Shown here: positions 5,051 through 33,342 of the stretch, one piece after another
How the letters are laid out: every line of letters begins with the position of its first letter
Numbering within the stretch: the first letter of the stretch is position 1
Origin: Escherichia coli
GTDB lineage: Bacteria > Pseudomonadota > Gammaproteobacteria > Enterobacterales > Enterobacteriaceae
NCBI RefSeq assembly: GCF_024223415.1
Contig: NZ_CP100500.1
DNA length: 64,000 bases
Strand: one strand, 5' to 3'
Translations under genes and position numbers: made by a program
The notes under the pieces: model-generated
Told to the model about the DNA's origin: nothing
What the model saw: the letters and a program-made list of their open reading frames with translations, nothing else
Databases searched by the model: none

Positions 5051-5722
5051 ATGCAGTACCCGATTAACGAGATGTTCCAGACCCTGCAAGGTGAGGGTTA
5101 CTTTACCGGCGTCCCCGCCATTTTTATTCGTTTACAGGGATGCCCGGTTGGCTGTGCCTGGTGCGACACCAAACACACCTGGGAAAAGCTTGAGGATCGG
5201 GAAGTCTCCCTTTTCAGCATTCTGGCGAAGACCAAAGAGAGTGATAAGTGGGGGGCGGCGAGCAGTGAAGATTTGCTGGCTGTCATTGGTCGCCAGGGAT
5301 ACACCGCGCGGCATGTGGTGATTACGGGTGGTGAGCCTTGCATTCATGATTTGCTACCACTGACAGATCTGCTCGAAAAGAACGGTTTTAGCTGCCAGAT
5401 CGAAACCAGTGGTACTCATGAGGTACGCTGCACACCGAATACCTGGGTTACCGTATCACCAAAGCTGAACATGCGCGGCGGCTATGAAGTGTTGTCACAG
5501 GCACTGGAGCGAGCCAACGAAATCAAGCATCCAGTGGGACGCGTACGTGATATTGAAGCACTGGATGAACTTTTGGCGACGCTGACCGATGATAAACCGC
5601 GAGTCATTGCACTGCAGCCGATTAGCCAAAAGGATGATGCCACACGTTTGTGCATTGAAACCTGCATTGCGCGTAATTGGCGTTTGTCGATGCAAACCCA
5701 TAAATATTTAAATATTGCCTGA
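5051..5722 (+). CDS. queE: 7-carboxy-7-deazaguanine synthase (radical SAM, queuosine biosynthesis)
   Basis: 223-aa ORF; CxxxCxxC-type cluster motif (GCPVGCAWCDT) and overall match to QueE/YgcF. Confidence 0.93.
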   Translation: MQYPINEMFQTLQGEGYFTGVPAIFIRLQGCPVGCAWCDTKHTWEKLEDREVSLFSILAKTKESDKWGAASSEDLLAVIGRQGYTARHVVITGGEPCIHDLLPLTDLLEKNGFSCQIETSGTHEVRCTPNTWVTVSPKLNMRGGYEVLSQALERANEIKHPVGRVRDIEALDELLATLTDDKPRVIALQPISQKDDATRLCIETCIARNWRLSMQTHKYLNIA

Positions 5723-5899
5723 TTAAACATTTATAAGCGTTATAAATGGGTGGAAACTGTAAAGACTTCTACTCATTTATATTCTTTGTCGTCTCTGAAA
5801 AACCTCCATTTTGCCCATCCTGAACTAATCATTATCATTCTCTACAAATTCTGTGGCGTTAATTTTTCGCTGGAGTGAAAACTATTGCGGTAAAGTTTG

Positions 5900-6059
5900 G
5901 TAGATTTTAGTTTGTATAGAGTTATTTTAAATATTTACCTTTTTAATCAATGGGTTAAGTGCTCTTTAACATGATGGATGTGTTGTTTGTGTGATACTGT
6001 AAAGTTGGTAGATTGTGACTGGCTTAAAAAATCATTAATTAATAATAGGTTATGTTTAG
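5900..6059 (+). promoter_or_regulatory. CRISPR leader (AT-rich) for array at 6060-6759
   Basis: AT-rich sequence ending ...taggttatgtttaga immediately 5' of first repeat; resembles the E. coli I-E leader as I recall it; boundaries approximate. Confidence 0.7.
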
Positions 6060-6759
6060 AGAGTTCCCCGCGCTAGCGGGGATAAACCGGCTGGATACCG
6101 ATCAATTCAATATCGTTTTACGAGTTCCCCGCGCTAGCGGGGATAAACCGGAATACCGATTCATAACGGCGGAAATGTGGATGAGTTCCCCGCGCTAGCG
6201 GGGATAAACCGGTTAATGATGTCAGTGGCGGTTTTCGTATCGCGAGTTCCCCGCGCTAGCGGGGATAAACCGAGTGAGGCAATCAAATGACCCGCCCGCA
6301 ATTAGAGTTCCCCGCGCCAGCGGGGATAAACCGTAAATCCCTCGCGCATCGAGTCAAATGTCGGAGAGTTCCCCGCGCCAGCGGGGATAAACCGGTCGCT
6401 GGAACGGGGCGAATAAAGAGGGGCTCGAGTTCCCCGCGCCAGCGGGGATAAACCGACAGCTCTTTCCCGTCGTTATCCAGTTGGTAAGAGTTCCCCGCGC
6501 CAGCGGGGATAAACCATATGATTCACGAATTACAGGAAACCAGCCGCCGAGTTCCCCGCGTCAGCGGGGGTAAACCGCTATCGGGGTGATTCTGCCAATG
6601 CTCAGAGTGGTGTTCCCCGCGCCAGCGGGGATAAACCGAGCGTTTGCTCCGGGTGGAATAACCCTGGCGGGTGTTCCCCGCTCCAGCGGGGATAAACCGT
6701 TTGCTGGAACCCAAAACTCAGCGCACAGGTTGTGTTCCCCGCGCCAGCGGGGATAAACC
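6060..6759 (+). CRISPR. Type I-E CRISPR array, 12 repeats of 29 bp with 11 spacers of 32 bp (61-bp period)
   Basis: Repeats GAGTTCCCCGCGC[T/C]AGCGGGGATAAACCG at 6060, 6121, 6182, 6243, 6304, 6365, 6426, 6487, 6548, 6609, 6670, 6731; distal repeats degenerate (GTG..., last base A). Confidence 0.98.
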
Positions 6760-7214
6760 ACCATATAACCCGTTATCTCTTTCTCAAGTTTTTATATTAG
6801 CTGTACTTGTAATAAGCAACATATCCACGTAACACCTCATGTTCAAAATAGTTCCCCATGCCAGATAAGTTCACAATTATCGATACAAAAAATTAAATTT
6901 AATCAAAGTGTTATTTGTATAATTCTTAAGCCGTTAAGAAATTTTAATCTATTATTTTTTTAATATTAATTAATGCCTGTTAATTTTTTCTTTAGTATAA
7001 CAGTGTATTTTTTAAGCTTGTTATTCATTGATTAAGTAATAAATCTGGAAATTTGTCTTTGTTTTGAGGCTAATGAGTGGTTTTACATAACCGCCTCTAT
7101 ACGCTGTTGATGAATAGTTCTTATGAATAAAGATATCCAGTTCATACTTTAAGTGAAAATTGATAAAGTGCGATTCGTATTGTCTTTTATTCTAAAGACA
7201 TCGAGTGTAGTTAA

Positions 7215-7352
7215 TATTCCTTGTAAAAACAGGGATAAACCGAACTAGTTAAAGTTTTTATTATGTTCCCTGCATCAGCGGGGATAAACCGGACTTGTTA
7301 TCATTTTTTAAGTTGTCGAACTTATGTTCCCCGCGCCAGCGGGGATAACCAT
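7215..7352 (+). CRISPR. Degenerate CRISPR remnant (2-3 decayed repeats, one 32-bp spacer) preceded by AT-rich leader-like region
   Basis: Repeat-like atgttccctgcatcagcggggataaaccg at 7263-7291 and atgttccccgcgccagcggggataacc at 7324-7350; partial cagggataaaccg at 7231-7243. Confidence 0.75.
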
Positions 7353-7397
7353 TCAGGTATGTTCAGGCCGGGCAGTTTCCCGCCCGGTCTTCCTCAC

Positions 7398-8876
7398 TTA
7401 CGCATTCGACCAGCTCTGGATCGAATCCGCATTCCCCAATTCCCCATGCATCACTTCATACGATTTTTTCAGGATCACATCAGTATGTTTGGTTAGGTCT
7501 TTGAAAATGCCTTTATTCATCGCGTCGTAGCGTTTGGCATTGCTCTCAATCGGTATAAAGATATCTTTCACGCGAACCATTTTATCGACAGCCGTTGCGT
7601 AATCCGGGTATAGCCCCAGACCTACCGCTGTATTAATCGCTGCCCCCAGGCTTGCACAACCGTTAATGGCGTTACGGCGTGCCGGAAGGTTGAACACGTC
7701 GGCAAAAATCTGCATAAACAGATCGCTGTTCGAACCGCCGCCAGTAATGATCACATGCTTTGCAAAGTGATTCATTTCATTACACATATTGTCGTAATTG
7801 TTCTTCAGCGTCAGCGCCACGCTTTCCAGTATAGAACGATATATCCATGCGTAATCCATGCTGGAATCAAAGCCGATCATAATCCCACGTTTGTAGGGTT
7901 CCCACGGGTTGGTCAGCCAGTCCAGCACCGTCATCAGACCATTACAGCCAGGCGGCACACAAGAAGCTTTTTTGTTGAGCAAATCTTCCGGTGAAAGATC
8001 CTGTGCTTTGGCATCCTGAATTAACGACTCGCCTAGCATGTCGCGCAGCCAGCTCACCGTCCACATGCCTTTACGGATACCGTAACCTTCATACAGCAAT
8101 GTTTGCGGAATAGAAGACATAATCGGCCAGTACGCCACCGGATCTTTCGGCAGTGCTTTGCCGTTCATCATCAATGCGATGTAAGTGCCAAGAGAAATTA
8201 CCGCCGTTTCATCATCCAGTAATCCGGCCCCCAGAGCTTCTACCGGTTTATCACTGGTGGTACAAACAACCGGCAGTCCTGCCGGGAAATGTGTCGCCAG
8301 TGCGGCTTGTGGTGTGATATGTCCGAGGACGGTGCCAGGCATTTGCACATCAAACAGCATATGACGGGGGATATTAAACTTATCCATTACCGCAGCATCT
8401 TCACTCCATGCCCAGCTCTTATAATCCACCGGCCACTGACCAAAATAGTTGGAGATATTGTCTTTAAACTCGCCGGTTAAGCGATGCGTCAGATAACCCG
8501 AAAAAGAGGTGACATAGGCCACGTCAGGATTAGTGTGTTCGTAGGGACGCGTTACGCGTGCATCCTGCCAGCTAATCAATGGCGCAGCTGGCGTGCCATC
8601 GGCTTTCAATAACGCACGGCAGCAACGGATGGATCCCAGACCAATACCGACAATATCTTCTTTATTCCCGGCAAACTGACTCATCAAATCGTGACCGGCA
8701 AAACATAATGATGCCCATAAATCGTCGTCAGGATGTTCTGCGGTATCGGCATCTGGCGTGTGCATCGGCTGCAATAAGCCTTTACCTTCGCAAACCACAT
8801 TACCTTCCAGATCGTACATCACCACTTTTGTGCTCTGACTTCCGCCATCAATCCCTATGATGTATTTTTTCGACAT
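7398..8876 (-). CDS. ygcE: FGGY-family carbohydrate kinase
   Basis: 492-aa ORF; FGGY kinase N-terminus (YIIGIDGGSQSTKVVMYD) and position next to CRISPR array as in K-12. Confidence 0.9.
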   Translation of the reverse strand: MSKKYIIGIDGGSQSTKVVMYDLEGNVVCEGKGLLQPMHTPDADTAEHPDDDLWASLCFAGHDLMSQFAGNKEDIVGIGLGSIRCCRALLKADGTPAAPLISWQDARVTRPYEHTNPDVAYVTSFSGYLTHRLTGEFKDNISNYFGQWPVDYKSWAWSEDAAVMDKFNIPRHMLFDVQMPGTVLGHITPQAALATHFPAGLPVVCTTSDKPVEALGAGLLDDETAVISLGTYIALMMNGKALPKDPVAYWPIMSSIPQTLLYEGYGIRKGMWTVSWLRDMLGESLIQDAKAQDLSPEDLLNKKASCVPPGCNGLMTVLDWLTNPWEPYKRGIMIGFDSSMDYAWIYRSILESVALTLKNNYDNMCNEMNHFAKHVIITGGGSNSDLFMQIFADVFNLPARRNAINGCASLGAAINTAVGLGLYPDYATAVDKMVRVKDIFIPIESNAKRYDAMNKGIFKDLTKHTDVILKKSYEVMHGELGNADSIQSWSNA

Positions 8877-23801: not shown

Positions 23802-26501
23802 ATGCGTAAATATCCTTTAAGTTTACTGAAGGATAAAAATATTGTGACTTTCTTTGATTTCTGGGGAAAAACCCGACGCGACGAGAAAGAAGGGGGTGAC
23901 GACTATCACCTTCTTTGCTGGCATTCGCTGGATGTGGCCGCGATGGGCTATTTAATGGTTAAAAGAAATTGCTTCGGGCTGGCTGATTATTTCCGTCAAT
24001 TAGGGATTTCTGACAAGGAACAGGCGGCTCAATTTTTCGCCTGGTTGTTGTGCTGGCACGATATTGGAAAATTTGCCCGCTCATTTCAGCAACTTTACCT
24101 GCACCCACAACTCAAGGTTCCGGAAGGCGCAAGAAAGAATTACGAAAAGATCTCTCATTCAACGCTGGGCTACTGGCTGTGGCATCATTATTTAAGTGAA
24201 TGCGAAGAATTGCTTCCTGCCTCTTCACTCTCTACTCGCAAACTTAAACGTGTAATAGCGATGTGGATGCCCATGACTACCGGGCATCATGGTCGCCCGC
24301 CTGACCGTATTGATGAACTGGATAATTTTCTGCCTGAAGACAAAGCTGCCGCGCGAGATTTTCTCCTTGAAATCAAGCCACTGTTTCCGCAGCTAGAGAT
24401 CCCCGCATTCTGGGATGATGACGAGGGCGTTGAACTTATAAAACAACTTTCCTGGTATATCTCTGCAACCGTCGTACTTGCAGACTGGACAGGATCGTCA
24501 ACGCGATTTTTTCCACGCGTCGCACAGACAATGGATATTGAAGATTACTGGCAAAAGGCTTTAGTTCAGGCTCAAAACGCATTAACCGTCTTTCCTCCAA
24601 AAGCAGAAACCGCGCCTTTCACCGGAATTAATACGCTGTTTCCTTTTATTGAGAATCCGAAACCGTTACAGCAAAAGGTGCTGGATCTGGATATCAGCCA
24701 GCCAGGACCGCAGTTATTTATTCTGGAGGATGTAACCGGCGCAGGTAAAACAGAAGCGGCGCTTATCCTGGCACACAGGTTGATGGCTGCGGGTAAAGCT
24801 CAGGGTTTGTTTTTTGGCCTGCCAACAATGGCAACGGCCAATGCCATGTACGATCGGCTGGTCAAAACCTGGCTTTCTTTCTATTCGCCAGAATCCCGCC
24901 CCAGCCTGGTGCTGGCACACAGTGCCCGCACATTAATGGACCGCTTTAATGAATCACTCTGGTCCGGTGATTTAGTCGGGTCAGAAGAACCGGATGAACA
25001 AACGTTCAGTCAGGGATGTGCGGCCTGGTTTGCCGACAGTAACAAGAAGGCGTTGCTGGCTGAAATTGGCGTCGGCAAGCTGGATCAGGCGATGATGGCA
25101 GTGATGCCGTTTAAACATAATAATCTGCGGCTTCTGGGGTTGAGTAACAAAATCCTGCTGGCTGATGAGATCCACGCCTGTGACGCTTACATGTCGTACA
25201 TTCTTGAAGGGTTGATTGAGCGACAGGTGCGTGGCGGAAACAGCGTCATTTTGCTTTCTGCTACGTTATCTCAACAGCAGCGCGACAAACTTGTCGCCGC
25301 CTTTGCGCGTGGCACAGAGGGCCAGCAAGAAGCTCCGTTCCTGGAAAAGGATGATTACCCCTGGCTGACGCATGTCACGAAATCCGATGTGCATTCGCAC
25401 CGGGTAGCGACGCGCAAAGACGTTGAGCGTAGCGTGAGCGTGGGTTGGCTTCATAGCGAACAAGAATGTATTGCGCGTATCGAATCAGCGGTAAGTCAGG
25501 GGAAATGCATCGCCTGGATCCGGAATTCTGTCGATGACGCTATTAAGGTTTATCGTCAGTTACTTGCCCGCGGCGTCATTCCTGCTTCCAGCCTTTCACT
25601 TTTTCATAGCCGCTTTGCTTTTAGCGATCGCCAGCGAATTGAAACGGAAACGCTGGCACGCTTTGGTAAAAATTGTAGTTTAAAAAGATCATCTCAAGTC
25701 ATTGTTTGTACACAAGTAATTGAGCAAAGTGTGGATATTGACCTGGACGAAATGATCTCCGACCTGGCCCCCATTGATTTGCTGATCCAGCGAGCGGGGC
25801 GATTACAACGGCATATTCGCGATATTAATGGTCAGTTAAAGCGTGATGGAAAAGACGAGCGTTCCCCTCCTGAATTGCTGATTCTGGCCCCCGTCTGGGA
25901 CGACGCTCCTGGTGACGAATGGTTCGGCAGTGCCATGCGTAACAGTGCATATGTCTACCCGGATCATGGGCGAATCTGGCTGACCCAGCGTGTGCTGCGT
26001 GAGCAAGGCGTTATTCAGATGCCACACTCAGCCCGCCTTCTTATTGAATCAGTCTACGGTGAGGACGTGGTAATGCCGGACGGATTTGCCCGCAGCGAGC
26101 AGGAGCAAGTGGGCAAATATTACTGCGATCGCTCAATGGCTAAAAAGTTTGTGCTGAACTTCAGGCCCGGCTATGCCGCCAATATCAACGATTACCTTCC
26201 GGAAAAGCTGTCGACACGTCTGGCTGAGGAATCTGTTTCCCTGTGGCTGGCTAGCTGTATTAACGGCGTGGTGAAGCCTTATGCCAGCGGTGCTCACGCA
26301 TGGGAAATGAGCGTTGTCAGAGTGCGCCGAAGCTGGTGGAAAAAACATCGGGATGAGTTTTCTTTACTGGAAGGGGAAGTGTTAAGGCAGTGGTGCATTG
26401 AACAGCGGCAAGATCCGGAGATGGCAAACGTGATTTTAGTCACCGATGACGAAAGTTGCGGGTATTCGGCTACGGAAGGATTGATTGGCAAGGTTGATTG
26501 A
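23802..26501 (+). CDS. cas3: Cas3 helicase-nuclease (HD domain + SF2 helicase), type I-E
   Basis: 899-aa ORF; HD motif region (HSLDVAAMG...WHDIGK), Walker A (GAGKT) and DEAD-like (ADEIH) motifs; start ambiguous (ATG 23802 vs in-frame GTG 23844). Confidence 0.93.
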   Translation: MRKYPLSLLKDKNIVTFFDFWGKTRRDEKEGGDDYHLLCWHSLDVAAMGYLMVKRNCFGLADYFRQLGISDKEQAAQFFAWLLCWHDIGKFARSFQQLYLHPQLKVPEGARKNYEKISHSTLGYWLWHHYLSECEELLPASSLSTRKLKRVIAMWMPMTTGHHGRPPDRIDELDNFLPEDKAAARDFLLEIKPLFPQLEIPAFWDDDEGVELIKQLSWYISATVVLADWTGSSTRFFPRVAQTMDIEDYWQKALVQAQNALTVFPPKAETAPFTGINTLFPFIENPKPLQQKVLDLDISQPGPQLFILEDVTGAGKTEAALILAHRLMAAGKAQGLFFGLPTMATANAMYDRLVKTWLSFYSPESRPSLVLAHSARTLMDRFNESLWSGDLVGSEEPDEQTFSQGCAAWFADSNKKALLAEIGVGKLDQAMMAVMPFKHNNLRLLGLSNKILLADEIHACDAYMSYILEGLIERQVRGGNSVILLSATLSQQQRDKLVAAFARGTEGQQEAPFLEKDDYPWLTHVTKSDVHSHRVATRKDVERSVSVGWLHSEQECIARIESAVSQGKCIAWIRNSVDDAIKVYRQLLARGVIPASSLSLFHSRFAFSDRQRIETETLARFGKNCSLKRSSQVIVCTQVIEQSVDIDLDEMISDLAPIDLLIQRAGRLQRHIRDINGQLKRDGKDERSPPELLILAPVWDDAPGDEWFGSAMRNSAYVYPDHGRIWLTQRVLREQGVIQMPHSARLLIESVYGEDVVMPDGFARSEQEQVGKYYCDRSMAKKFVLNFRPGYAANINDYLPEKLSTRLAEESVSLWLASCINGVVKPYASGAHAWEMSVVRVRRSWWKKHRDEFSLLEGEVLRQWCIEQRQDPEMANVILVTDDESCGYSATEGLIGKVD

Positions 26502-26598
26502 GATGTCTGCGACAGGACTCTCTGAATAGTTGATATACAGAAAAGGATGGAAAGATGGACAACCGACCTGGGATGGTCTTTTTTACGAGAGGATGCGT

Positions 26599-28161
26599 AT
26601 GAACTCGTTTTCACTTCTGACAACCTCGTGGTTGCCCGTTCGTTTTAAAGACGGAACGACAGGCAAACTGGCACCAGTCGATCTGGCTGATGAAAATGTT
26701 GTCGATATCGCTGCGCCGCGGGCAGATCTCCAGGGTGCGGCATGGCAGTTTTTGCTGGGGCTACTACAAACCAGCTTCGCGCCAAAAGATCATCGTCGTT
26801 GGGATGATATCTGGGAAGACGGACTGGAATCTGAAAAGCTACGGGAAGCATTGCTGTCATTAGAACACGCTTTCCAGTTTGGGCCAGATTCCCCTTCATT
26901 TATGCAGGATTTCGAGGCGCTCACGGGAGATAAAGTTCAGATCGCTTCGTTACTGCCTGAGATTCCCGGCGCTCAAACAACGAAGTTTAATAAAGACCAT
27001 TTTATCAAGCGTGGTGTAACGGAATACCTGTGTCCTCATTGTTCAGCGTTAGCCCTGTTCTCCCTACAGTTAAATGCACCGTCAGGCGGCAAAGGCTATC
27101 GCACCGGTTTACGCGGCGGTGGGCCGATGACCACTCTTATTGAATTACAGGAATATCAGGGCAATCAACAAACACCCTTATGGCGCAAACTGTGGCTCAA
27201 TGTGATGCCGCAGGATGAAGCCGACTTACCGCTACCCAAAAAATTTGACGATCTGATTTTCCCCTGGCTTGGCCCGACGCGTACCAGCGAACTGGCCGGT
27301 GCGGTGGTAACCGATGATCAGGTTAATAAACTCCAGGCGTACTGGGGAATGCCACGGCGTATTCGTATTGATTTTAATACCACGACAGTCGGCAACTGCG
27401 ATATTTGCGGCGAGCAGAACGACGCGCTCCTGAACCTGATGACGACCAAAAATTACGGCGCTAACTATGCCATGTGGCAGCATCCCTTAACGCCTTACCG
27501 TATACCACTTAAAGAGGGTGGCGAGTTTTACTCCGTTAAACCACAACCGGGCGGTTTAATCTGGCGCGACTGGTTAGGCCTTATCGAAACGGGTAAATCA
27601 GAAAACAATACGGAACTTCCCGCGCTGGTGGTGAAACTCTTTAATGCCAGCAGTCTGAAACAGGCAAAAGTGGGCCTATGGGGATTTGGTTATGATTTCG
27701 ACAATATGAAAGCGCGCTGTTGGTACGAACACCATTTCCCGCTGCTGCTCAATAAAAAAGAAGGCCAGATACCGAAACTGCGGCTGGCTGCGCAAACGGC
27801 TTCACGGATTCTGAGTCTGTTACGGAGTGCATTGAAAGAAGCGTGGTTCTCCGATCCAAAAGGTGCACGGGGTGATTTCAGTTTTGTGGATATCGACTTC
27901 TGGAACAAAACTCAGCATCGCTTCCTGAGGTTAGTGCGCCAAATTGAAGAAGGTCAGGATCCAGATGAATTACTCGGCAAATGGCAAAAGGAAATTTGGT
28001 TATTTGCGCGTCAGGATTTTGACGAGCGTGTATTCACCAATCCTTATGAGCCCGTTGATTTGAAACGCGTCATGACCGCACGCAAGAAATATTTTACAAC
28101 ATCGGCGGAGAAGCAAAATGCTAAAGCCGCCAGGGAGAAAAAGCAGGAGGCTGCTGAATGA
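26599..28161 (+). CDS. casA: Cascade large subunit Cse1/CasA (Cas8e)
   Basis: ORF 26530-28161; preferred ATG 26599 (GAGAGG RBS); position after cas3 and size ~520 aa; sequence differs from K-12 CasA as I recall it. Confidence 0.85.
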   Translation: MNSFSLLTTSWLPVRFKDGTTGKLAPVDLADENVVDIAAPRADLQGAAWQFLLGLLQTSFAPKDHRRWDDIWEDGLESEKLREALLSLEHAFQFGPDSPSFMQDFEALTGDKVQIASLLPEIPGAQTTKFNKDHFIKRGVTEYLCPHCSALALFSLQLNAPSGGKGYRTGLRGGGPMTTLIELQEYQGNQQTPLWRKLWLNVMPQDEADLPLPKKFDDLIFPWLGPTRTSELAGAVVTDDQVNKLQAYWGMPRRIRIDFNTTTVGNCDICGEQNDALLNLMTTKNYGANYAMWQHPLTPYRIPLKEGGEFYSVKPQPGGLIWRDWLGLIETGKSENNTELPALVVKLFNASSLKQAKVGLWGFGYDFDNMKARCWYEHHFPLLLNKKEGQIPKLRLAAQTASRILSLLRSALKEAWFSDPKGARGDFSFVDIDFWNKTQHRFLRLVRQIEEGQDPDELLGKWQKEIWLFARQDFDERVFTNPYEPVDLKRVMTARKKYFTTSAEKQNAKAAREKKQEAAE

Positions 28162-28694
28162 GTATTGTAAAAGAGGAGCACAAAGCCACGCTGCGTAAAT
28201 GGCACGAAGAGTTGCAGGCTAAACGCGGCAATCGTGCCAGTCTGCGGCGTAGCACAACGGTTAATGATGTTTGCTTGTCAGAAGGGTTTCGTTCTCTGCT
28301 GATGCAGACCCACACTTTGTGGAAAATTGAAGCACAAGAGTGGCGTTTTACCGCACTGGCGCTGGTCGCCGCAGTTAGCGCCAATGTAAAAGCCATTGAT
28401 GAACGGCAGCCTTTTGCCGCGCAGCTGGCGGCGGTAATGTCGGAGGGGCGTTTTACTCGCCTGTCGGCAGTAAAAACGCCGGATGATTTACTGCGTCAGT
28501 TACGTCGCGCGGTCAAATTATTAAACGGTTCCGTCAATCTTATCTCTTTGGCAGAAGATATTTTCCGCTGGTGTCAGGAGAGCGACGACCTGCTCAATCA
28601 TCACCGCCGCCAGCAGCGGCCAACCGAATTTATCCGTATCCGCTGGGCACTGGAATATTACCAGGCTGGCGACGCCGATAACGAACAAAATTAA
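28158..28694 (+). CDS. casB: Cascade small subunit Cse2/CasB
   Basis: 178-aa ORF overlapping casA stop by 4 nt; operon position. Confidence 0.85.
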   Translation: MSIVKEEHKATLRKWHEELQAKRGNRASLRRSTTVNDVCLSEGFRSLLMQTHTLWKIEAQEWRFTALALVAAVSANVKAIDERQPFAAQLAAVMSEGRFTRLSAVKTPDDLLRQLRRAVKLLNGSVNLISLAEDIFRWCQESDDLLNHHRRQQRPTEFIRIRWALEYYQAGDADNEQN

Positions 28695-28708
28695 TAAAGG
28701 ACTATCTC

Positions 28709-29764
28709 ATGACAACATTTATTCAGCTTCATTTGTTAACCGCTTACCCTGCTGCCAACCTTAACCGTGATGATACTGGTGCGCCAAAAACTGTGGTACT
28801 GGGTGGTGCAACGCGTCTGCGCGTTTCCTCACAAAGTCTGAAACGTGCGTGGCGCACTTCTGCACTTTTTGAACAGGCACTGGCGGGCCATATTGGTATT
28901 CGCAGTGGGCGAATTGCGCGTGAGGCGGCAACTATCCTGATTGAGAAAGGAATCGAAGAGAAAAAAGCCATCGAATGGGCGGCAAAAATTGCGGATTATC
29001 TTGGGAAAGCTAAAAACGACAAAAAACCAAAAGATCCGCTCACTAACGCCGAAACTGAACAATTAGTTCATATCAGCCCGGCAGAATTTGACGCCGTAAA
29101 AGCGCTGGCCCATCAACTGGCAGAAGAAAAGCGCGCGCCAATAGAGGAAGATCTCGCGTTGTTACGTAAAGACCGTATAGCGGTAGATATCGCTATGTTT
29201 GGTCGTATGCTGGCGAATAAACCTGAGTTTAATGTTGAAGCCGCCTGCCAGGTCGCGCATGCGTTTGGTGTCAGTGAAACGATTGTCGAAGATGATTTTT
29301 TCACCGCCGTTGATGATTTGCGCCAGGCCTCTGAAGATGCCGGTGCCGGGCATCTCGGAGAAACCGGATTCGGTTCAGCACTTTTCTACACCTATATCTG
29401 CATTGATAAAGATCTGCTGGTAGAAAACCTCGGCGGTGACGAAGCGTTAGCTAATCAGACCATACGCGCTTTTACGGAAGCCGCACTTAAAGTCTCCCCA
29501 ACCGGCAAACAGAACAGCTTTGCCAGCCGTGCCTACGCCTCCTGGGCGCTGGCAGAAAAAGGCACCGAACAACCGCGTTCTCTGGCGGCGGCTTTCTATG
29601 AACCCATTAATGGCACCCGGCAGTTAGATGTGGCGGTGCAGCGTATTACAACGCTTCGCGAAAACATGAATACGGTCTACGAACAGAAGACCGAATGCGT
29701 AAGTTTTGACGTGATGAACAAACAGGGAAGCATGAAGGACGTGCTGGACTTTATCTGCGCGTAA
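28709..29764 (+). CDS. casC: Cascade backbone subunit Cas7e/CasC
   Basis: 351-aa ORF; N-terminus MTTFIQLHLLTAYPAANLNRDDTGAPK typical of Cas7e. Confidence 0.9.
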   Translation: MTTFIQLHLLTAYPAANLNRDDTGAPKTVVLGGATRLRVSSQSLKRAWRTSALFEQALAGHIGIRSGRIAREAATILIEKGIEEKKAIEWAAKIADYLGKAKNDKKPKDPLTNAETEQLVHISPAEFDAVKALAHQLAEEKRAPIEEDLALLRKDRIAVDIAMFGRMLANKPEFNVEAACQVAHAFGVSETIVEDDFFTAVDDLRQASEDAGAGHLGETGFGSALFYTYICIDKDLLVENLGGDEALANQTIRAFTEAALKVSPTGKQNSFASRAYASWALAEKGTEQPRSLAAAFYEPINGTRQLDVAVQRITTLRENMNTVYEQKTECVSFDVMNKQGSMKDVLDFICA

Positions 29765-29774
29765 GGGGCGGCTT

Positions 29775-30521
29775 ATGAGCCAATATCTGATTTTTCAGCT
29801 TCATGGGCCGATGGCATCCTGGGGCGTCGATGCTCCCGGCGAAGTGCGTCATACCCATGAACTGCCTTCGCGCTCAGCATTGCTGGGGTTACTGGCTGCC
29901 GGGGTAGGGATTCGGCGTGATGATACCGAACGATTAAACGCGTTTAACCGCCACTATTCACTGGTGGTTTGCGCCAGCCGTAACCCGCGCTGGGCACGGG
30001 ATTATCACACGGTCCAGATGCCAAAAGAGGTGCGTAAATCGCGTTATTTCAGCCGTCGCGAAGAGTTGAGCGATCCTGATCTTCTGAGCGCAATTATCTC
30101 CCGGCGCGACTACTACACCGATGCCTGGTGGATGGTGGCGGTGGCAACAACCCCCGATGCGCCTTACAGCCTTGAACAGTTGCAGGAAGGTTTACGTCAT
30201 CCGGTTTTTCCGCTTTATCTGGGGCGAAAAAGTCATCCGCTGGCATTACCACTCGCGCCGTTACTGATCGAAGGCAACGCGTCTGATGCCTTATGTAACG
30301 CATACCAACAGTATCAGGATAGTTTCCGCGAACTGAAAGTCTCACTCCCGAAACTTCAGGATGAATGCTGGTGGGAAGGGAAACACGACGGCCTGGTCGC
30401 GAGCAAAATATTACGTCGCCGGGATGTTCCTTTGAATCGTCAGCAGTGGCTGTTTGGGGAACGCACCGTCAATCAGGGGCCGTGGCTCAGCAAGGAGGAA
30501 CCATGTACCTCTCAAGAATAA
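29775..30521 (+). CDS. casD: Cascade subunit Cas5e/CasD
   Basis: 248-aa ORF; N-terminus MSQYLIFQLHGPMASWG typical of Cas5e; 3' end overlaps casE start by 19 nt. Confidence 0.88.
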   Translation: MSQYLIFQLHGPMASWGVDAPGEVRHTHELPSRSALLGLLAAGVGIRRDDTERLNAFNRHYSLVVCASRNPRWARDYHTVQMPKEVRKSRYFSRREELSDPDLLSAIISRRDYYTDAWWMVAVATTPDAPYSLEQLQEGLRHPVFPLYLGRKSHPLALPLAPLLIEGNASDALCNAYQQYQDSFRELKVSLPKLQDECWWEGKHDGLVASKILRRRDVPLNRQQWLFGERTVNQGPWLSKEEPCTSQE

Positions 30522-31149
30522 CCTTACATACCGGCCAGCTTTCGCCTGCGCAGTTGTTGCATCTGGTGGATCGCGGTGAATATGTGATGCATCAGTGGCT
30601 GTGGGATCTCTTCCCAGGCGGCAAAGAAAGGCAATTTCTTTATCGTCGGGAAGAACTCCAGGGCGCGTTTCGCTTTTTTGTCCTGTCGCAGGAACGCCCG
30701 GCGGAAAGTGAAATGTTCACCATCGAATGCCGACCATTTGCGTCGGAGTTGCGTACCGGACAATCGCTTTGTTTCAACCTGCGGGCGAATCCAACAATCT
30801 GTAAAGCGGGCAAGCGCCACGATCTGCTGATGGAAGCGAAACGGCAGGTGAGGGGGCAGGCGGAAGGAAGTGATGTCTGGTTGCATCAACAACAGGCAGC
30901 GCTGGACTGGCTGGCAGCGCAGGGGGAGAGAAGCGGTTTTACACTGCTGGATACCTCGGTTGATGCCTACCGACAACAGCAACTCCGGCGGGAAAACTCC
31001 CGACAACTGATCCAGTTCAGTAGCGTGGATTATACGGGGATGCTTACGGTCACCGATCCTGGGTTATTTCTGCAACGTCTGAGCCAGGGGTATGGCAAAA
31101 GCCGCGCGTTCGGCTGTGGTCTGATGCTGATCAAACCCGGAGCAGAGGC

Positions 31150-31153
<4 letters not shown>
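30503..31153 (+). CDS. casE: Cas6e/CasE crRNA endoribonuclease
   Basis: ORF-track call starts 30365; preferred ATG 30503 (MYLSRITLHTG..., AAGGAGG RBS), ~216 aa; C-terminal G-rich loop GYGKSRAFGCGLM. Confidence 0.9.
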
Positions 31154-32363
<1,210 letters not shown>

Positions 32364-32459: not shown

Positions 32460-33342
32460 GTGTTCCCCGCGCCAGCGGGGATAAACCGGTCAAATCGGTT
32501 ACCTTAACCTGTTGAATGTGGTGTTCCCCGCGCCAGCGGGGATAAACCGAACGGCTACGGCACCGAGGTGACAAACCAGATGTGTTCCCCGCGCCAGCGG
32601 GGATAAACCGAACTCCAGGATATTGCAAACCGCATAGTGGATGTGTTCCCCGCGCCAGCGGGGATAAACCGCCGTTGCGCTGGCATCGGGTGTACCTGTT
32701 GTGGTGTTCCCCGCGCCAGCGGGGATAAACCGCCGTTGCGCTGGCATCGGGTGTACCTGTTGTGGTGTTCCCCGCGCCAGCGGGGATAAACCGGGCTTAC
32801 ACGCCACCATGGCATCAAGAACGATGTGTTCCCCGCGCCAGCGGGGATAAACCGATTACGACTTCCGCACGCACCCACCGTTTGTAGTGTTCCCCGCGCC
32901 AGCGGGGATAAACCGTTGGGCTAGGAGGAAGAGCATCATTAACATGGGTGTTCCCCGCGCCAGCGGGGATAAACCTGAGGCGGCTAAACCGTCGCGCACA
33001 CGAGCGACGTGTTCCCCGCGCCAGCGGGGATAAACCGCGTACTGCTTACTCCGTCATCGATGTATGAGTGTGTTCCCCGCGCCAGCGGGGATAAACCGTA
33101 CGTGTCGCCGTTACAGATTTCAGTCTGTTAGTGTTCCCCGCGCCAGCGGGGATAAACCGGGCGTCCAGTGATGCTTTCTGGTGCTCGAATAGTGTTCCCC
33201 GCGCCAGCGGGGATAAACCGCACGATTTTATGTGCCGCGTTGAGGCGTGGGCGTGTTCCCCGCGCCAGCGGGGATAAACCGGGCGCACTGGATGCGATGA
33301 TGGATATCACTTAGAATTCCCCGCCCCTGCGGTAGAACACCC
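32460..33342 (+). CRISPR. Type I-E CRISPR array, 14 repeats of 29 bp plus degenerate terminal repeat; 14 spacers of 32 bp
   Basis: GTGTTCCCCGCGCCAGCGGGGATAAACCG every 61 bp from 32460 to 33253; degenerate repeat gaattccccgcccctgcggtagaacac at 33314-33342. Confidence 0.98.

What the first reader, a model, noticed from the sequence alone, without database searches (positions are those of the whole stretch)
6060..6759. Leader-proximal repeat variant marks a block of more recently acquired spacers in the queE-side array
The four leader-proximal repeats (6060, 6121, 6182, 6243) carry T at repeat position 14 (GCGCTAGC), whereas repeats 5-8 have C. Distal repeats 9-12 carry other changes (GTG start, GCGTCAGCGGGGGT, GCTCCAGC, terminal A). 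Because each acquisition copies the leader-proximal repeat, a variant restricted to the first four repeats indicates that the first three or four spacers were added after that mutation arose, that is, the array has been actively adapting. The leader-distal degeneracy gradient also confirms array polarity.
Basis: partly seen in the sequence, partly recalled or inferred. Interest (0 to 1): 0.35.

Follow-up and report, generated by a model that had tools for sequence, protein, structure and literature searches.

The report
E. coli CRISPR repeat-variant block
The four repeats nearest the leader of this E. coli CRISPR array do share a harmless one-letter variant that marks the spacers added after it arose. 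This is an ordinary, well-understood pattern, and related strains show the array has lately been losing spacers rather than gaining them.

Summary
Window 6061-6760 is the type I-E CRISPR2.3 array of E. coli, between queE and ygcE. It has 12 repeats of 29 nt and 11 spacers of 32 nt. Its coordinates are 1 nt too low.

C14T lies in the hairpin tetraloop and does not change the predicted fold.

Six public genomes are clone-mates (about 100% identical over 24 kb; next best 98.7%). They share S5-S11 and the same T/C boundary after S4. In the five cleanly assembled ones, T repeats are contiguous and leader-proximal, so the relative-age inference holds.

The fullest relative has seven T repeats in the order S1-S2-S13-S15-S14-S3-S4. 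The window is therefore a deletion derivative that lost three spacers. At least six spacers, not three, followed the mutation.

No clone-mate has a spacer upstream of S1. Both arrays differ among clone-mates only by deletions and duplications, so "actively adapting" is not supported.

S1 and S2 match one P2-like prophage family. S3 and S4 match nothing searched.

Variant blocks are common. C13T occurs in 1585 of 5426 genomes and C14T in 45, and C14T blocks also occur in E. albertii and Klebsiella.

Verdict: already known, low interest.

The parts
5051..5722 (+). queE (7-carboxy-7-deazaguanine synthase), the upstream flank
   Evidence: ORF. NCBIfam TIGR04322, E=1e-110. Annotated queE in all related loci.
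5723..6060 (+). AT-rich leader of the queE-side array (leader 2.3)
   Evidence: Read directly. Homologous blocks shared with the sequence upstream of the cas-adjacent array (78% column identity; TAATCAAT.GGTTA.GTG.TCTTTAA, AGTTGGTAGATTGT and TATG.TTAG conserved).
6061..6272 (+). T block: repeats R1-R4 (6061-6089, 6122-6150, 6183-6211, 6244-6272), each with C14T, enclosing spacers S1 (6090-6121), S2 (6151-6182) and S3 (6212-6243)
   Evidence: The same repeats form contiguous leader-proximal blocks in clone-mates.
6273..6304 (+). Spacer S4, at the T/C boundary. It was the first spacer when the mutation arose, or was inserted in the same event.
   Evidence: It has a T repeat upstream and a C repeat downstream in the window and in all clone-mates. 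GPEC1446 has T-S4-C as its leader-proximal unit.
6305..6577 (+). Middle stratum: repeats R5-R9 (GAG type, C14) with spacers S5-S8. R8 is G29A. R9 is C13T plus A22G.
   Evidence: S5-S11 are identical in the clone-mates; in SCU-316 several carry assembly indels.
6578..6760 (+). Oldest stratum: spacers S9-S11 and repeats R10-R12 (GTG type, A2T). R11 also has G12T. The terminal repeat R12 has G29A.
   Evidence: GTG/GAG is the known two-variant polymorphism of E. coli repeats (PMC3737337; PMC3384332).
7263..7352 (+). CRISPR2.2 remnant: two degenerate repeats and one spacer, 502 bp after the array
   Evidence: Conserved in every E. coli CRISPR-II locus fetched. It fits the published layout 'CRISPR2.2 and CRISPR2.3 separated by 0.5 kb' (PMC3903273).
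7398..8876 (-). ygcE (FGGY-family carbohydrate kinase), the downstream flank
   Evidence: ORF. Annotated ygcE in relatives.
23802..32363 (+). Complete type I-E cas operon (cas3, cse1, cse2, cas7, cas5, cas6e, cas1, cas2), non-K-12 variant
   Evidence: Eight full-length ORFs. NCBIfam type I-E (or Cas3 domain) models pass their cut-offs, while Cas3 and Cse1 score below the NF007248/NF007247 equivalog cut-offs, which I take to be the K-12-type models.
32460..33281 (+). Cas-adjacent array (CRISPR1 / CRISPR2.1): 14 GTG-type repeats, none with C14T
   Evidence: Compared with three clone-mates.

Best explanation
This is the CRISPR2.3 (queE-ygcE) array of a natural E. coli clone with a complete non-K-12 type I-E system.

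A neutral C-to-T transition arose at position 14 in the then-first repeat, either when S4 was the newest spacer or during the insertion of S4. Position 14 is in the tetraloop of the repeat hairpin. Cas1-Cas2 integration duplicates the leader-proximal repeat, so every later insertion inherited T. At least six spacers followed, in the order S3, S14, S15, S13, S2, S1. The two newest came from one family of P2-like temperate phages.

Later, recombination or slippage between identical T repeats removed S13-S15-S14 in the window's lineage. Other contiguous blocks were lost in its clone-mates.

The T block is therefore a valid marker of relative age. What it records is an old burst of acquisition followed by decay, not current adaptation.

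Shown here: the anatomy, the comparative pattern, the protospacers, and the unchanged fold. Taken from published experiments: the copy-the-first-repeat rule. Inferred: the order of events, the neutrality for Cas6e and Cas1-Cas2, and loss by repeat-repeat recombination.
For: - Anatomy.
- Mechanism: the new repeat is always copied from repeat 1, shown with the GAG/GTG label (PMC3384332).
- Clone: window 36000-60000 is about 100% identical to only six of 5426 genomes, and the next best is 98.7%. The array flanks differ by 0-3 nt in 3.1 kb. The same six are the only genomes carrying the S5-S11 block; S11 alone also occurs in a few other arrays.
- Arrays, with the T block ending after S4 and then S5-S11 in each:
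  - O78 strain 3: T x7, S1 S2 S13 S15 S14 S3 S4.
  - NCTC9112: T x6, lacking S1.
  - KV7: lacks S15.
  - NCTC10444: lacks S14 and S3.
  - Window: lacks S13, S15 and S14.
  - GPEC1446: T on repeat 1 only, then S4.
  Each is one contiguous deletion away from the fullest array.
- No newer spacer appears in any clone-mate. The cas-adjacent array shares its first spacer in all four arrays compared and differs only by internal deletions and duplications.
- Fold: C14U lies in the GCCA loop and the predicted energy is unchanged at -15.1 kcal/mol.
- Protospacers:
  - S2 is 32/32 in the replication-endonuclease gene of a P2-like prophage, preceded by ATG.
  - S1 is 31/32 in the same prophage, 20.5 kb away.
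  - S1 is 32/32 in an IMG/VR contig that also carries a 32/32 ATG-flanked match to a spacer of the cas-adjacent array.
  - ATG fits the AWG (CWT) acquisition motif of the non-K-12 cas-E variant (PMC3737337).
- Generality: in every cleanly assembled multi-copy array fetched, the T repeats form one contiguous block.
Against: - GPEC1446 (T on repeat 1 only) and NCTC9112 (no S1) can be read either as ancestral states or as leader-end deletions. The sequences cannot tell these apart.
- SCU-316 shows T-S14-C-S3-T-S4, an interleaved pattern. That assembly is full of homopolymer indels in this very region, so I do not trust it.
- Unrelated arrays show that the first repeat can switch back. ECNB21-M121 has one C repeat ahead of eight T repeats. 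The cas-adjacent array of R32_14_1F has 23 C, then 8 T, then 3 C. Blocks are therefore strata, not always the newest layer.
- The S1 protospacer is preceded by GTG, not AWG.
- Neutrality of C14T for Cas6e processing and for integration is inferred from the fold and from the long T blocks. It was not measured.
Confidence: 0.8

Rival explanations
1. One reading: the array is currently active, and the T block reflects recent, ongoing spacer uptake in this strain.
For: - All eight cas genes are intact.
- S1 and S2 match extant prophages at 31-32 of 32 nt.
- NCTC9112 lacks S1 and GPEC1446 lacks S1-S3. This could mean those spacers were gained within the clone.
Against: - No clone-mate has any spacer upstream of S1.
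- Strains from pig, calf, chicken and human hosts in several countries share the same first spacers in both arrays, while differing by only a few SNPs per 24 kb.
- Every difference is explained by a single deletion or duplication.
- The window's own most recent visible event is a loss of three spacers.
- Published surveys report E. coli arrays stable for years to millennia, with diversity driven by deletion (PMC10910852).
Confidence: 0.12
2. The T block, with or without the leader, was imported from another strain by homologous recombination with a crossover inside a repeat. On this view S1-S4 were not acquired by this lineage's own Cas1-Cas2.
For: - Recombination between E. coli CRISPR loci has been inferred in the literature (PMC3903273; the title and abstract of PMC4524480).
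- Leader-proximal T blocks sit on at least three different distal anchors (S11, S25, S56).
- Seven T-block strains are among the 24 nearest non-clone neighbours for the adjacent 24 kb, against a base rate of 45 in 5426.
Against: - No other sequenced array shares any T-block spacer with this clone's queE-side array. S2 does occur elsewhere, but in the cases whose position could be checked it lies in cas-adjacent arrays.
- Flank divergence from other T-block strains is about 0.8-2% upstream and 2-2.5% downstream, with no near-identical side that would mark a breakpoint.
- Both S2 and S7, one on each side of the T/C boundary, have ATG upstream of their protospacers. That fits one acquisition machinery.
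Confidence: 0.06
3. The four T's arose by separate C-to-T mutations or by gene conversion among repeats. They would then carry no information about the order of acquisition.
For: C14T is recurrent. Single isolated T repeats occur at repeat 2 (O121, O178) and at the penultimate repeat of other arrays. The variant also occurs in at least eight other species of Enterobacterales (Salmonella and Klebsiella tables in PMC9754226 and PMC8847753).
Against: - Four independent hits at the same base in exactly the first four repeats has a placement probability of 1/495, before counting the rarity of the mutation itself.
- The block boundary is at the same spacer in all clone-mates. Block length follows the number of retained spacers.
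- Multi-copy T repeats are contiguous in every reliable array examined.
Confidence: 0.02

Closest known systems
E. coli CRISPR-II locus, array CRISPR2.3 (ygcE-ygcF/queE) of the type I-E system, with the CRISPR2.2 remnant 0.5 kb downstream (Díez-Villaseñor/Almendros/Mojica nomenclature; PMC3903273, PMC3737337)
   Same: - The flanking genes, the leader, the 29-nt type-2 repeat and the 32-nt spacers.
- The 0.5-kb gap to a degenerate second array.
- The distant cas-E operon with its own array next to iap.
- The AWG protospacer motif of the non-K-12 cas-E variant.
   Different: Nothing in kind. This clone's spacer set is rare (6 of 5426 complete genomes) and its proximal repeats carry the uncommon C14T variant.
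Repeat 'label' inheritance in E. coli adaptation (Yosef, Goren & Qimron 2012, PMC3384332)
   Same: A single-base repeat variant in the first repeat is copied into each newly inserted repeat. This is exactly the logic behind reading the T block as a time marker.
   Different: The published label was position 2 (GAG/GTG) in an engineered two-repeat array with overexpressed Cas1-Cas2. Here the label is a natural loop variant at position 14, and the propagation is inferred from comparative genomics.
Other repeat-variant strata in Enterobacterales type I-E arrays
   Same: - C13T repeats occur in 1585 of 5426 E. coli genomes, with up to 35 copies per genome.
- C14T forms leader-proximal blocks in E. 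albertii (8) and K. grimontii (22), and in other E. coli arrays with 5-12 copies.
- C14T is tabulated as a minor variant in Salmonella and Klebsiella surveys.
   Different: In Pectobacterium, Serratia, K. spallanzanii and Leminorella the T repeats lie at the distal end. In two E. coli arrays the T block is internal or is preceded by a C repeat. The switch therefore happens in both directions.
Deletion-driven array diversification within E. coli clones (O157:H7 and O78 APEC; PMC10910852 introduction; PMC10740950)
   Same: Closely related strains differ by loss of different internal spacers from a fuller hypothetical progenitor, and few or no spacers are gained.
   Different: That O78 paper's held supplementary text does not contain this clone's spacers.

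Membership tests
Type I-E CRISPR array of Escherichia coli (CRISPR2.3) | Direct repeats of 29 nt matching GWGTTCCCCGCGCCAGCGGGGATAAACCG, with 32-nt spacers and a 61-nt period | tested here: met
   There are 12 repeats with 0-2 substitutions each and an exact 61-nt spacing.
Type I-E CRISPR array of Escherichia coli (CRISPR2.3) | Location between queE (ygcF) and ygcE, with a CRISPR2.2 remnant about 0.5 kb downstream | tested here: met
   NCBIfam identifies QueE. RefSeq annotation of matching loci gives queE, CRISPR and ygcE. The remnant lies 502 bp away. The layout is as described in PMC3903273.
Type I-E CRISPR array of Escherichia coli (CRISPR2.3) | AT-rich leader on the 5' side of the GWGTT...CCG repeat orientation | tested here: met
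   5723-6060 is AT-rich and homologous to the region upstream of the cas-adjacent array. Leader function (promoter, IHF site) was not tested. The consensus promoter scan was uninformative.
Type I-E CRISPR array of Escherichia coli (CRISPR2.3) | Repeat RNA forms the 7-bp stem and tetraloop hairpin recognised by Cas6e | tested here: met
   The predicted structure pairs positions 5-11 with 16-22 for the consensus, C14U, R9 and R11 variants, at -13.9 to -15.1 kcal/mol. Cas6e cleavage itself cannot be tested with these tools.
Type I-E CRISPR array of Escherichia coli (CRISPR2.3) | Cognate type I-E cas genes present in the genome | tested here: met
   cas3 through cas2 lie at 23802-32363. All are full length and hit type I-E (or Cas3 domain) NCBIfam models.
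Type I-E CRISPR array of Escherichia coli (CRISPR2.3) | Protospacers flanked by the AWG motif, whose G corresponds to the last base of the upstream repeat | tested here: inconclusive
   S2, S7 and one cas-adjacent-array spacer have ATG upstream. S1 has GTG upstream. Only four protospacers were found.
Rfam CRISPR direct-repeat families | A match to an Rfam covariance model at its gathering score | tested here: not met
   There was no match in 5700-7400. This is uninformative for a 29-nt repeat and does not bear on the assignment above.
Repeat-variant block as a record of ordered acquisition | Variant repeats are contiguous, start at the leader, and have the same distal boundary in related strains | tested here: met
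   This holds in five accurate clone-mate assemblies and the window. The only exception is the error-laden SCU-316 assembly.
Repeat-variant block as a record of ordered acquisition | The new repeat is templated by the first repeat | not testable with these tools
   Taken from the experiment in PMC3384332. That work used BL21-AI with overexpressed Cas1-Cas2 from plasmid pCas1+2, not the non-K-12 variant present here.

The most novel reading that the evidence does not exclude
Spacer S1, and possibly S2 and S3, was acquired within the lifetime of this very tight clone. NCTC9112 starts at S2 and GPEC1446 at S4. S1 came from the same P2-like phage family as the preceding spacer S2. That would be a rare documented case of natural, stepwise adaptation by a wild, non-K-12 E. 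coli I-E system, datable on a clone phylogeny.
Probability: 0.2. Interest if true: 0.45.

Novelty: already known. Interest (0 to 1): 0.14.

Why it matters
It matters little beyond bookkeeping. The case is a clean natural illustration of two textbook rules: new repeats copy the first repeat, and arrays decay by repeat-to-repeat deletion.

It also carries a practical warning. A variant block read in a single genome gives relative order only. It undercounts acquisitions (three seen here, at least six in fact) and says nothing about whether the system is active now.

Two minor uses follow. The C14T block and the S4/S5 boundary are convenient markers for typing this clone. The S1 and S2 hits add to the evidence that E. 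coli spacers mostly target temperate prophages.

Tried and rejected
- All 14 spacers of the lineage against INPHARED phages and PLSDB plasmids (blastn, E up to 1): no match. The N-joined query format was validated on E. coli genomes.
- Exact 24-mers of S2, S3 and S4 against IMG/VR: none.
- S3 and S4 against JGI metagenomes, and S4 against GTDB species genomes: none. S3 and S4 remain without a known target.
- Rfam scan of the array: nothing at gathering score.
- Consensus promoter and terminator scan of leader and array: no more sites than in shuffles.
- The exact C14T repeat sequence in the literature: found only in Salmonella, Klebsiella and Serratia survey papers, not for E. coli.
- Supplementary text of the O78 APEC CRISPR paper: it does not contain these spacers.
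- A special role for C14T: rejected. The neighbouring loop variant C13T is 35 times more widespread, and C14T leaves the fold unchanged.
- Primed acquisition of S1 from S2: considered and not claimed. The two protospacers lie on opposite strands and S1's flank is GTG. Both features are atypical for I-E priming as I recall it from the literature.
- An indel-tolerant regex parse misreported repeat lengths. It was replaced by substitution-only parsing.
- Two paper searches failed on term length, and one 'find' call failed on a term that was too short.

Full report
**What is there.** Window 6061-6760 (+ strand) holds 12 direct repeats of 29 nt at an exact 61-nt period, separated by 11 spacers of 32 nt. 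The consensus is GAGTTCCCCGCGCCAGCGGGGATAAACCG, the type I-E repeat of Escherichia coli. The array lies between queE (5051-5722, +; NCBIfam TIGR04322, E=1e-110) and ygcE (7398-8876, -). Two degenerate repeats follow 502 bp downstream at 7263-7352. That is the published layout of the CRISPR-II locus, with arrays CRISPR2.3 and CRISPR2.2 separated by 0.5 kb (PMC3903273). A complete cas3-cse1-cse2-cas7-cas5-cas6e-cas1-cas2 operon occupies 23802-32363. It is followed by a second array of 14 GTG-type repeats at 32460-33281, next to iap. Cas3 and Cse1 score below the NF007248/NF007247 equivalog cut-offs, which I take to be the K-12-type models. The system is therefore the non-K-12 cas-E variant described by the Mojica laboratory (PMC3737337, PMC3903273).

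**The observation.** It is correct.
- R1-R4 carry C14T, with T at 6074, 6135, 6196 and 6257.
- R5-R7 are consensus.
- R8 is G29A.
- R9 is C13T plus A22G.
- R10 is A2T.
- R11 is A2T plus G12T.
- R12 is A2T plus G29A.

Random placement of four T repeats among twelve would fill exactly the first four positions with probability 1/495.

**Nature of the variant.** The repeat RNA folds into a 7-bp stem (positions 5-11 with 16-22) and a GCCA tetraloop. C14U sits in the loop and leaves the predicted energy at -15.1 kcal/mol. Every other point variant in this array is also benign on this measure:
- in the loop (positions 12 and 13),
- at flank positions 2 or 29, or
- pairing-preserving (A22G gives a U5-G22 pair).

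The distal 'degeneracy' is therefore constrained. The A2T shared by R10-R12 is the well-known GTG/GAG repeat polymorphism, so it forms an older stratum rather than random decay.

**Polarity.** Four lines of evidence put the leader on the queE side.
- The 5723-6060 region is AT-rich and shares conserved blocks with the sequence upstream of the cas-adjacent array.
- Protospacers carry their motif on the side that corresponds to the upstream repeat's last G.
- Within the clone, the queE-side end varies while S5-S11 are constant.
- The last repeat is the degenerate one.

**Relatives.** A 24-kb stretch next to the locus (36000-60000) is about 100% identical to only six of 5426 complete E. coli genomes. 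These are NCTC10444, KV7, SCU-316, GPEC1446, NCTC9112 and O78 strain 3. The next best genome is 98.7% identical. The array flanks differ by 0-3 nt in 3.1 kb. The same six genomes are the only ones that carry the S5-S11 block; S11 alone also occurs in a few other arrays. They are clone-mates of the window's strain.

| Genome | T-type repeats | Spacers in the T block | Difference from the fullest array |
|---|---|---|---|
| O78 strain 3 | 7 | S1 S2 S13 S15 S14 S3 S4 | none in the T block; S6 is duplicated further down |
| NCTC9112 | 6 | S2 S13 S15 S14 S3' S4 | lacks S1 |
| KV7 | 6 | S1 S2' S13 S14 S3 S4 | lacks S15 |
| NCTC10444 | 5 | S1 S2 S13 S15 S4 | lacks S14 and S3 |
| Window | 4 | S1 S2 S3 S4 | lacks S13, S15 and S14 |
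| GPEC1446 | 1 | S4 | lacks S1 through S3 |

(. S13, S14 and S15 are spacers absent from the window.) In all of these the T repeats are contiguous, begin at the leader, and stop at the same place, with a C-type repeat between S4 and S5. Each array is one contiguous deletion away from the O78-strain-3 order. SCU-316 reads T-S14-C-S3-T-S4, but its assembly has many homopolymer indels in this region, so I set it aside.

The premise is experimentally established: the new repeat is always copied from repeat 1 (Yosef et al. 2012, PMC3384332). The relative-age reading therefore stands. S4 was the newest spacer when the mutation arose, or was inserted in the same event, and everything upstream of it is younger.

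Two corrections are needed.
1. At least six spacers followed the mutation, not three. The window has since lost S13-S15-S14, so its S2 and S3 are not consecutive acquisitions.
2. 'Actively adapting' is not supported.
   - No clone-mate has a spacer upstream of S1.
   - In the cas-adjacent array, all four arrays compared share the same first spacer. They differ only by internal deletions and duplications. The window has one duplicated unit and lacks one spacer.
   - The isolates come from pig, calf, chicken and human sources in several countries.
   - This matches published surveys, which report E. coli arrays stable for years to millennia and diversifying by deletion (PMC10910852; PMC10740950).

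NCTC9112 (no S1) and GPEC1446 (no S1-S3) could be ancestral states rather than deletions. Sequence alone cannot decide this. It is the basis of the 'novel case'.

**Spacer origins.** None of the 14 lineage spacers matches INPHARED phages or PLSDB plasmids at E up to 1 (query format validated).

| Spacer | Best match | Bases upstream |
|---|---|---|
| S2 | 32/32 in the replication-endonuclease gene of a P2-like prophage, in six E. coli genomes | ATG |
| S1 | 31/32 in a tail-region gene of the same prophage, 20.5 kb away on the other strand | GTG |
| S1 | 32/32 in IMG/VR contig UViG_3300011584_000016 | GTG |
| Cas-adjacent-array spacer | 32/32 in the same IMG/VR contig | ATG |
| S7 | 32/32 in the tail region of a prophage in two pork isolates | ATG |
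| S3, S4 | no match in any collection searched | n/a |

ATG fits the AWG (CWT) acquisition motif reported for the non-K-12 cas-E variant (PMC3737337). The prophage is P2-like on its annotation: P2-family capsid, GPO scaffold, Ogr/Delta. None of the six clone-mates carries a second copy of these spacers' sequences (one matched place per genome, two only for the split array of O78 strain 3), so there is no sign of self-targeting. S2 also occurs in about 35 unrelated genomes. Where its position can be checked, in three strains, it lies 26-27 kb from the queE-side array and is annotated as CRISPR, which places it in the cas-adjacent array. The same protospacer was evidently captured independently.

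**How ordinary is it?** The exact C14T repeat occurs in 45 of 5426 genomes, with 156 copies and 1-12 per genome.
- Other E. coli queE-side arrays, with unrelated spacers, have leader-proximal T blocks of 5-12 repeats.
- One array has a C repeat ahead of eight T repeats.
- One cas-adjacent array has an internal T stratum (23 C, 8 T, 3 C).
- Several arrays have a lone T repeat.
- As controls, the neighbouring loop variant C13T is in 1585 genomes with up to 35 copies, and A15G is in none.
- Among species-representative genomes, C14T forms leader-proximal blocks in E. albertii (8) and Klebsiella grimontii (22). In Pectobacterium, Serratia, K. spallanzanii and Leminorella it sits at the distal end.
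- It is listed as a minor variant in Salmonella and Klebsiella surveys.

Strata of repeat variants are thus a routine feature of enterobacterial I-E arrays, and the switch goes both ways.

**Rivals.**
- Import of the T block by recombination is possible but has no positive evidence. No other array shares these T-block spacers in the queE-side position, and the flanks show no breakpoint.
- Independent mutation or gene conversion is contradicted by the contiguity of the block and by the shared boundary.
- Ongoing adaptation is contradicted by the clone comparison.

**Verdict.** This is a real feature, correctly described and correctly oriented. The relative-time reading is sound, but the claim of activity is overstated and the count of acquisitions is too low. 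It belongs to a known kind in every respect, and near-identical arrays are already in public genomes. Interest is low.

Noticed in passing
window 32643-32793 (cas-adjacent array, 32460-33281): There is a perfect tandem duplication of one spacer-repeat unit. Spacer CCGTTGCGCTGGCATCGGGTGTACCTGTTGTG occurs at 32672-32703 and again at 32733-32764. The window also lacks a spacer (GCGTTTCTGGCGGGGGTAGGGAACGCCCAGAA) that three clone-mates have. Clone-mates show other internal deletions and duplications but share the same first spacer.
   Followed up: yes
window 6061-6760 compared with L001-L004, L008, L019: All six independent spacer losses seen in the clone's queE-side array fall between identical T-type repeats. 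The distal block with heterogeneous repeats (S5-S11) is intact in every member, and the one duplication (S6) lies between identical C repeats. This suggests that repeat heterogeneity protects old spacers from recombinational loss. The sample is small.
   Followed up: partly
window 6151-6182 (spacer S2): The identical spacer occurs in about 35 unrelated E. coli genomes. In the three strains whose position could be checked it lies in the cas-adjacent array. It targets the replication-endonuclease gene of P2-like prophages. The same protospacer has apparently been captured repeatedly in different arrays and lineages.
   Followed up: partly
L031 11335-11366 and L030 9675-9706 (S1 protospacers): The S1 protospacer is preceded by GTG rather than the AWG motif, both in the six prophages and in the IMG/VR contig. 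This is either a non-consensus acquisition or a PAM-escape mutation in the surviving phages.
   Followed up: no
window 7214-7352: This is the CRISPR2.2 remnant: two degenerate repeats (7263-7291 and 7324-7352) with one spacer, identical in every E. coli locus fetched. A still more degenerate repeat-like unit lies at 7214-7259, 74% identical to 7263-7308.
   Followed up: partly
window 6074, 6135, 6196, 6257: C14T turns GCGCCAGC into GCGCTAGC and so creates CTAG. From memory, CTAG is the sequence context of Vsr very-short-patch repair, which converts T:G mismatches to C:G. That could bias T-to-C reversion in heteroduplexes and might explain arrays where a C repeat precedes a T block. This is an untested idea.
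   Followed up: no
L032, L039-L042, L044, L045 (other Enterobacterales arrays): C14T repeats form leader-proximal blocks in E. albertii NBRC 107761 (8) and K. grimontii 06D021 (22). In Pectobacterium, Serratia, K. spallanzanii and Leminorella they occupy the last one or two positions. The T state is therefore sometimes the older one.
   Followed up: partly
L005/L011/L020, array spacer next to the T/C boundary: A spacer in the C-type part of an unrelated E. coli array is 28/32 identical to S13, a spacer the window has lost. This probably reflects independent captures from homologous sites of related phages.
   Followed up: no
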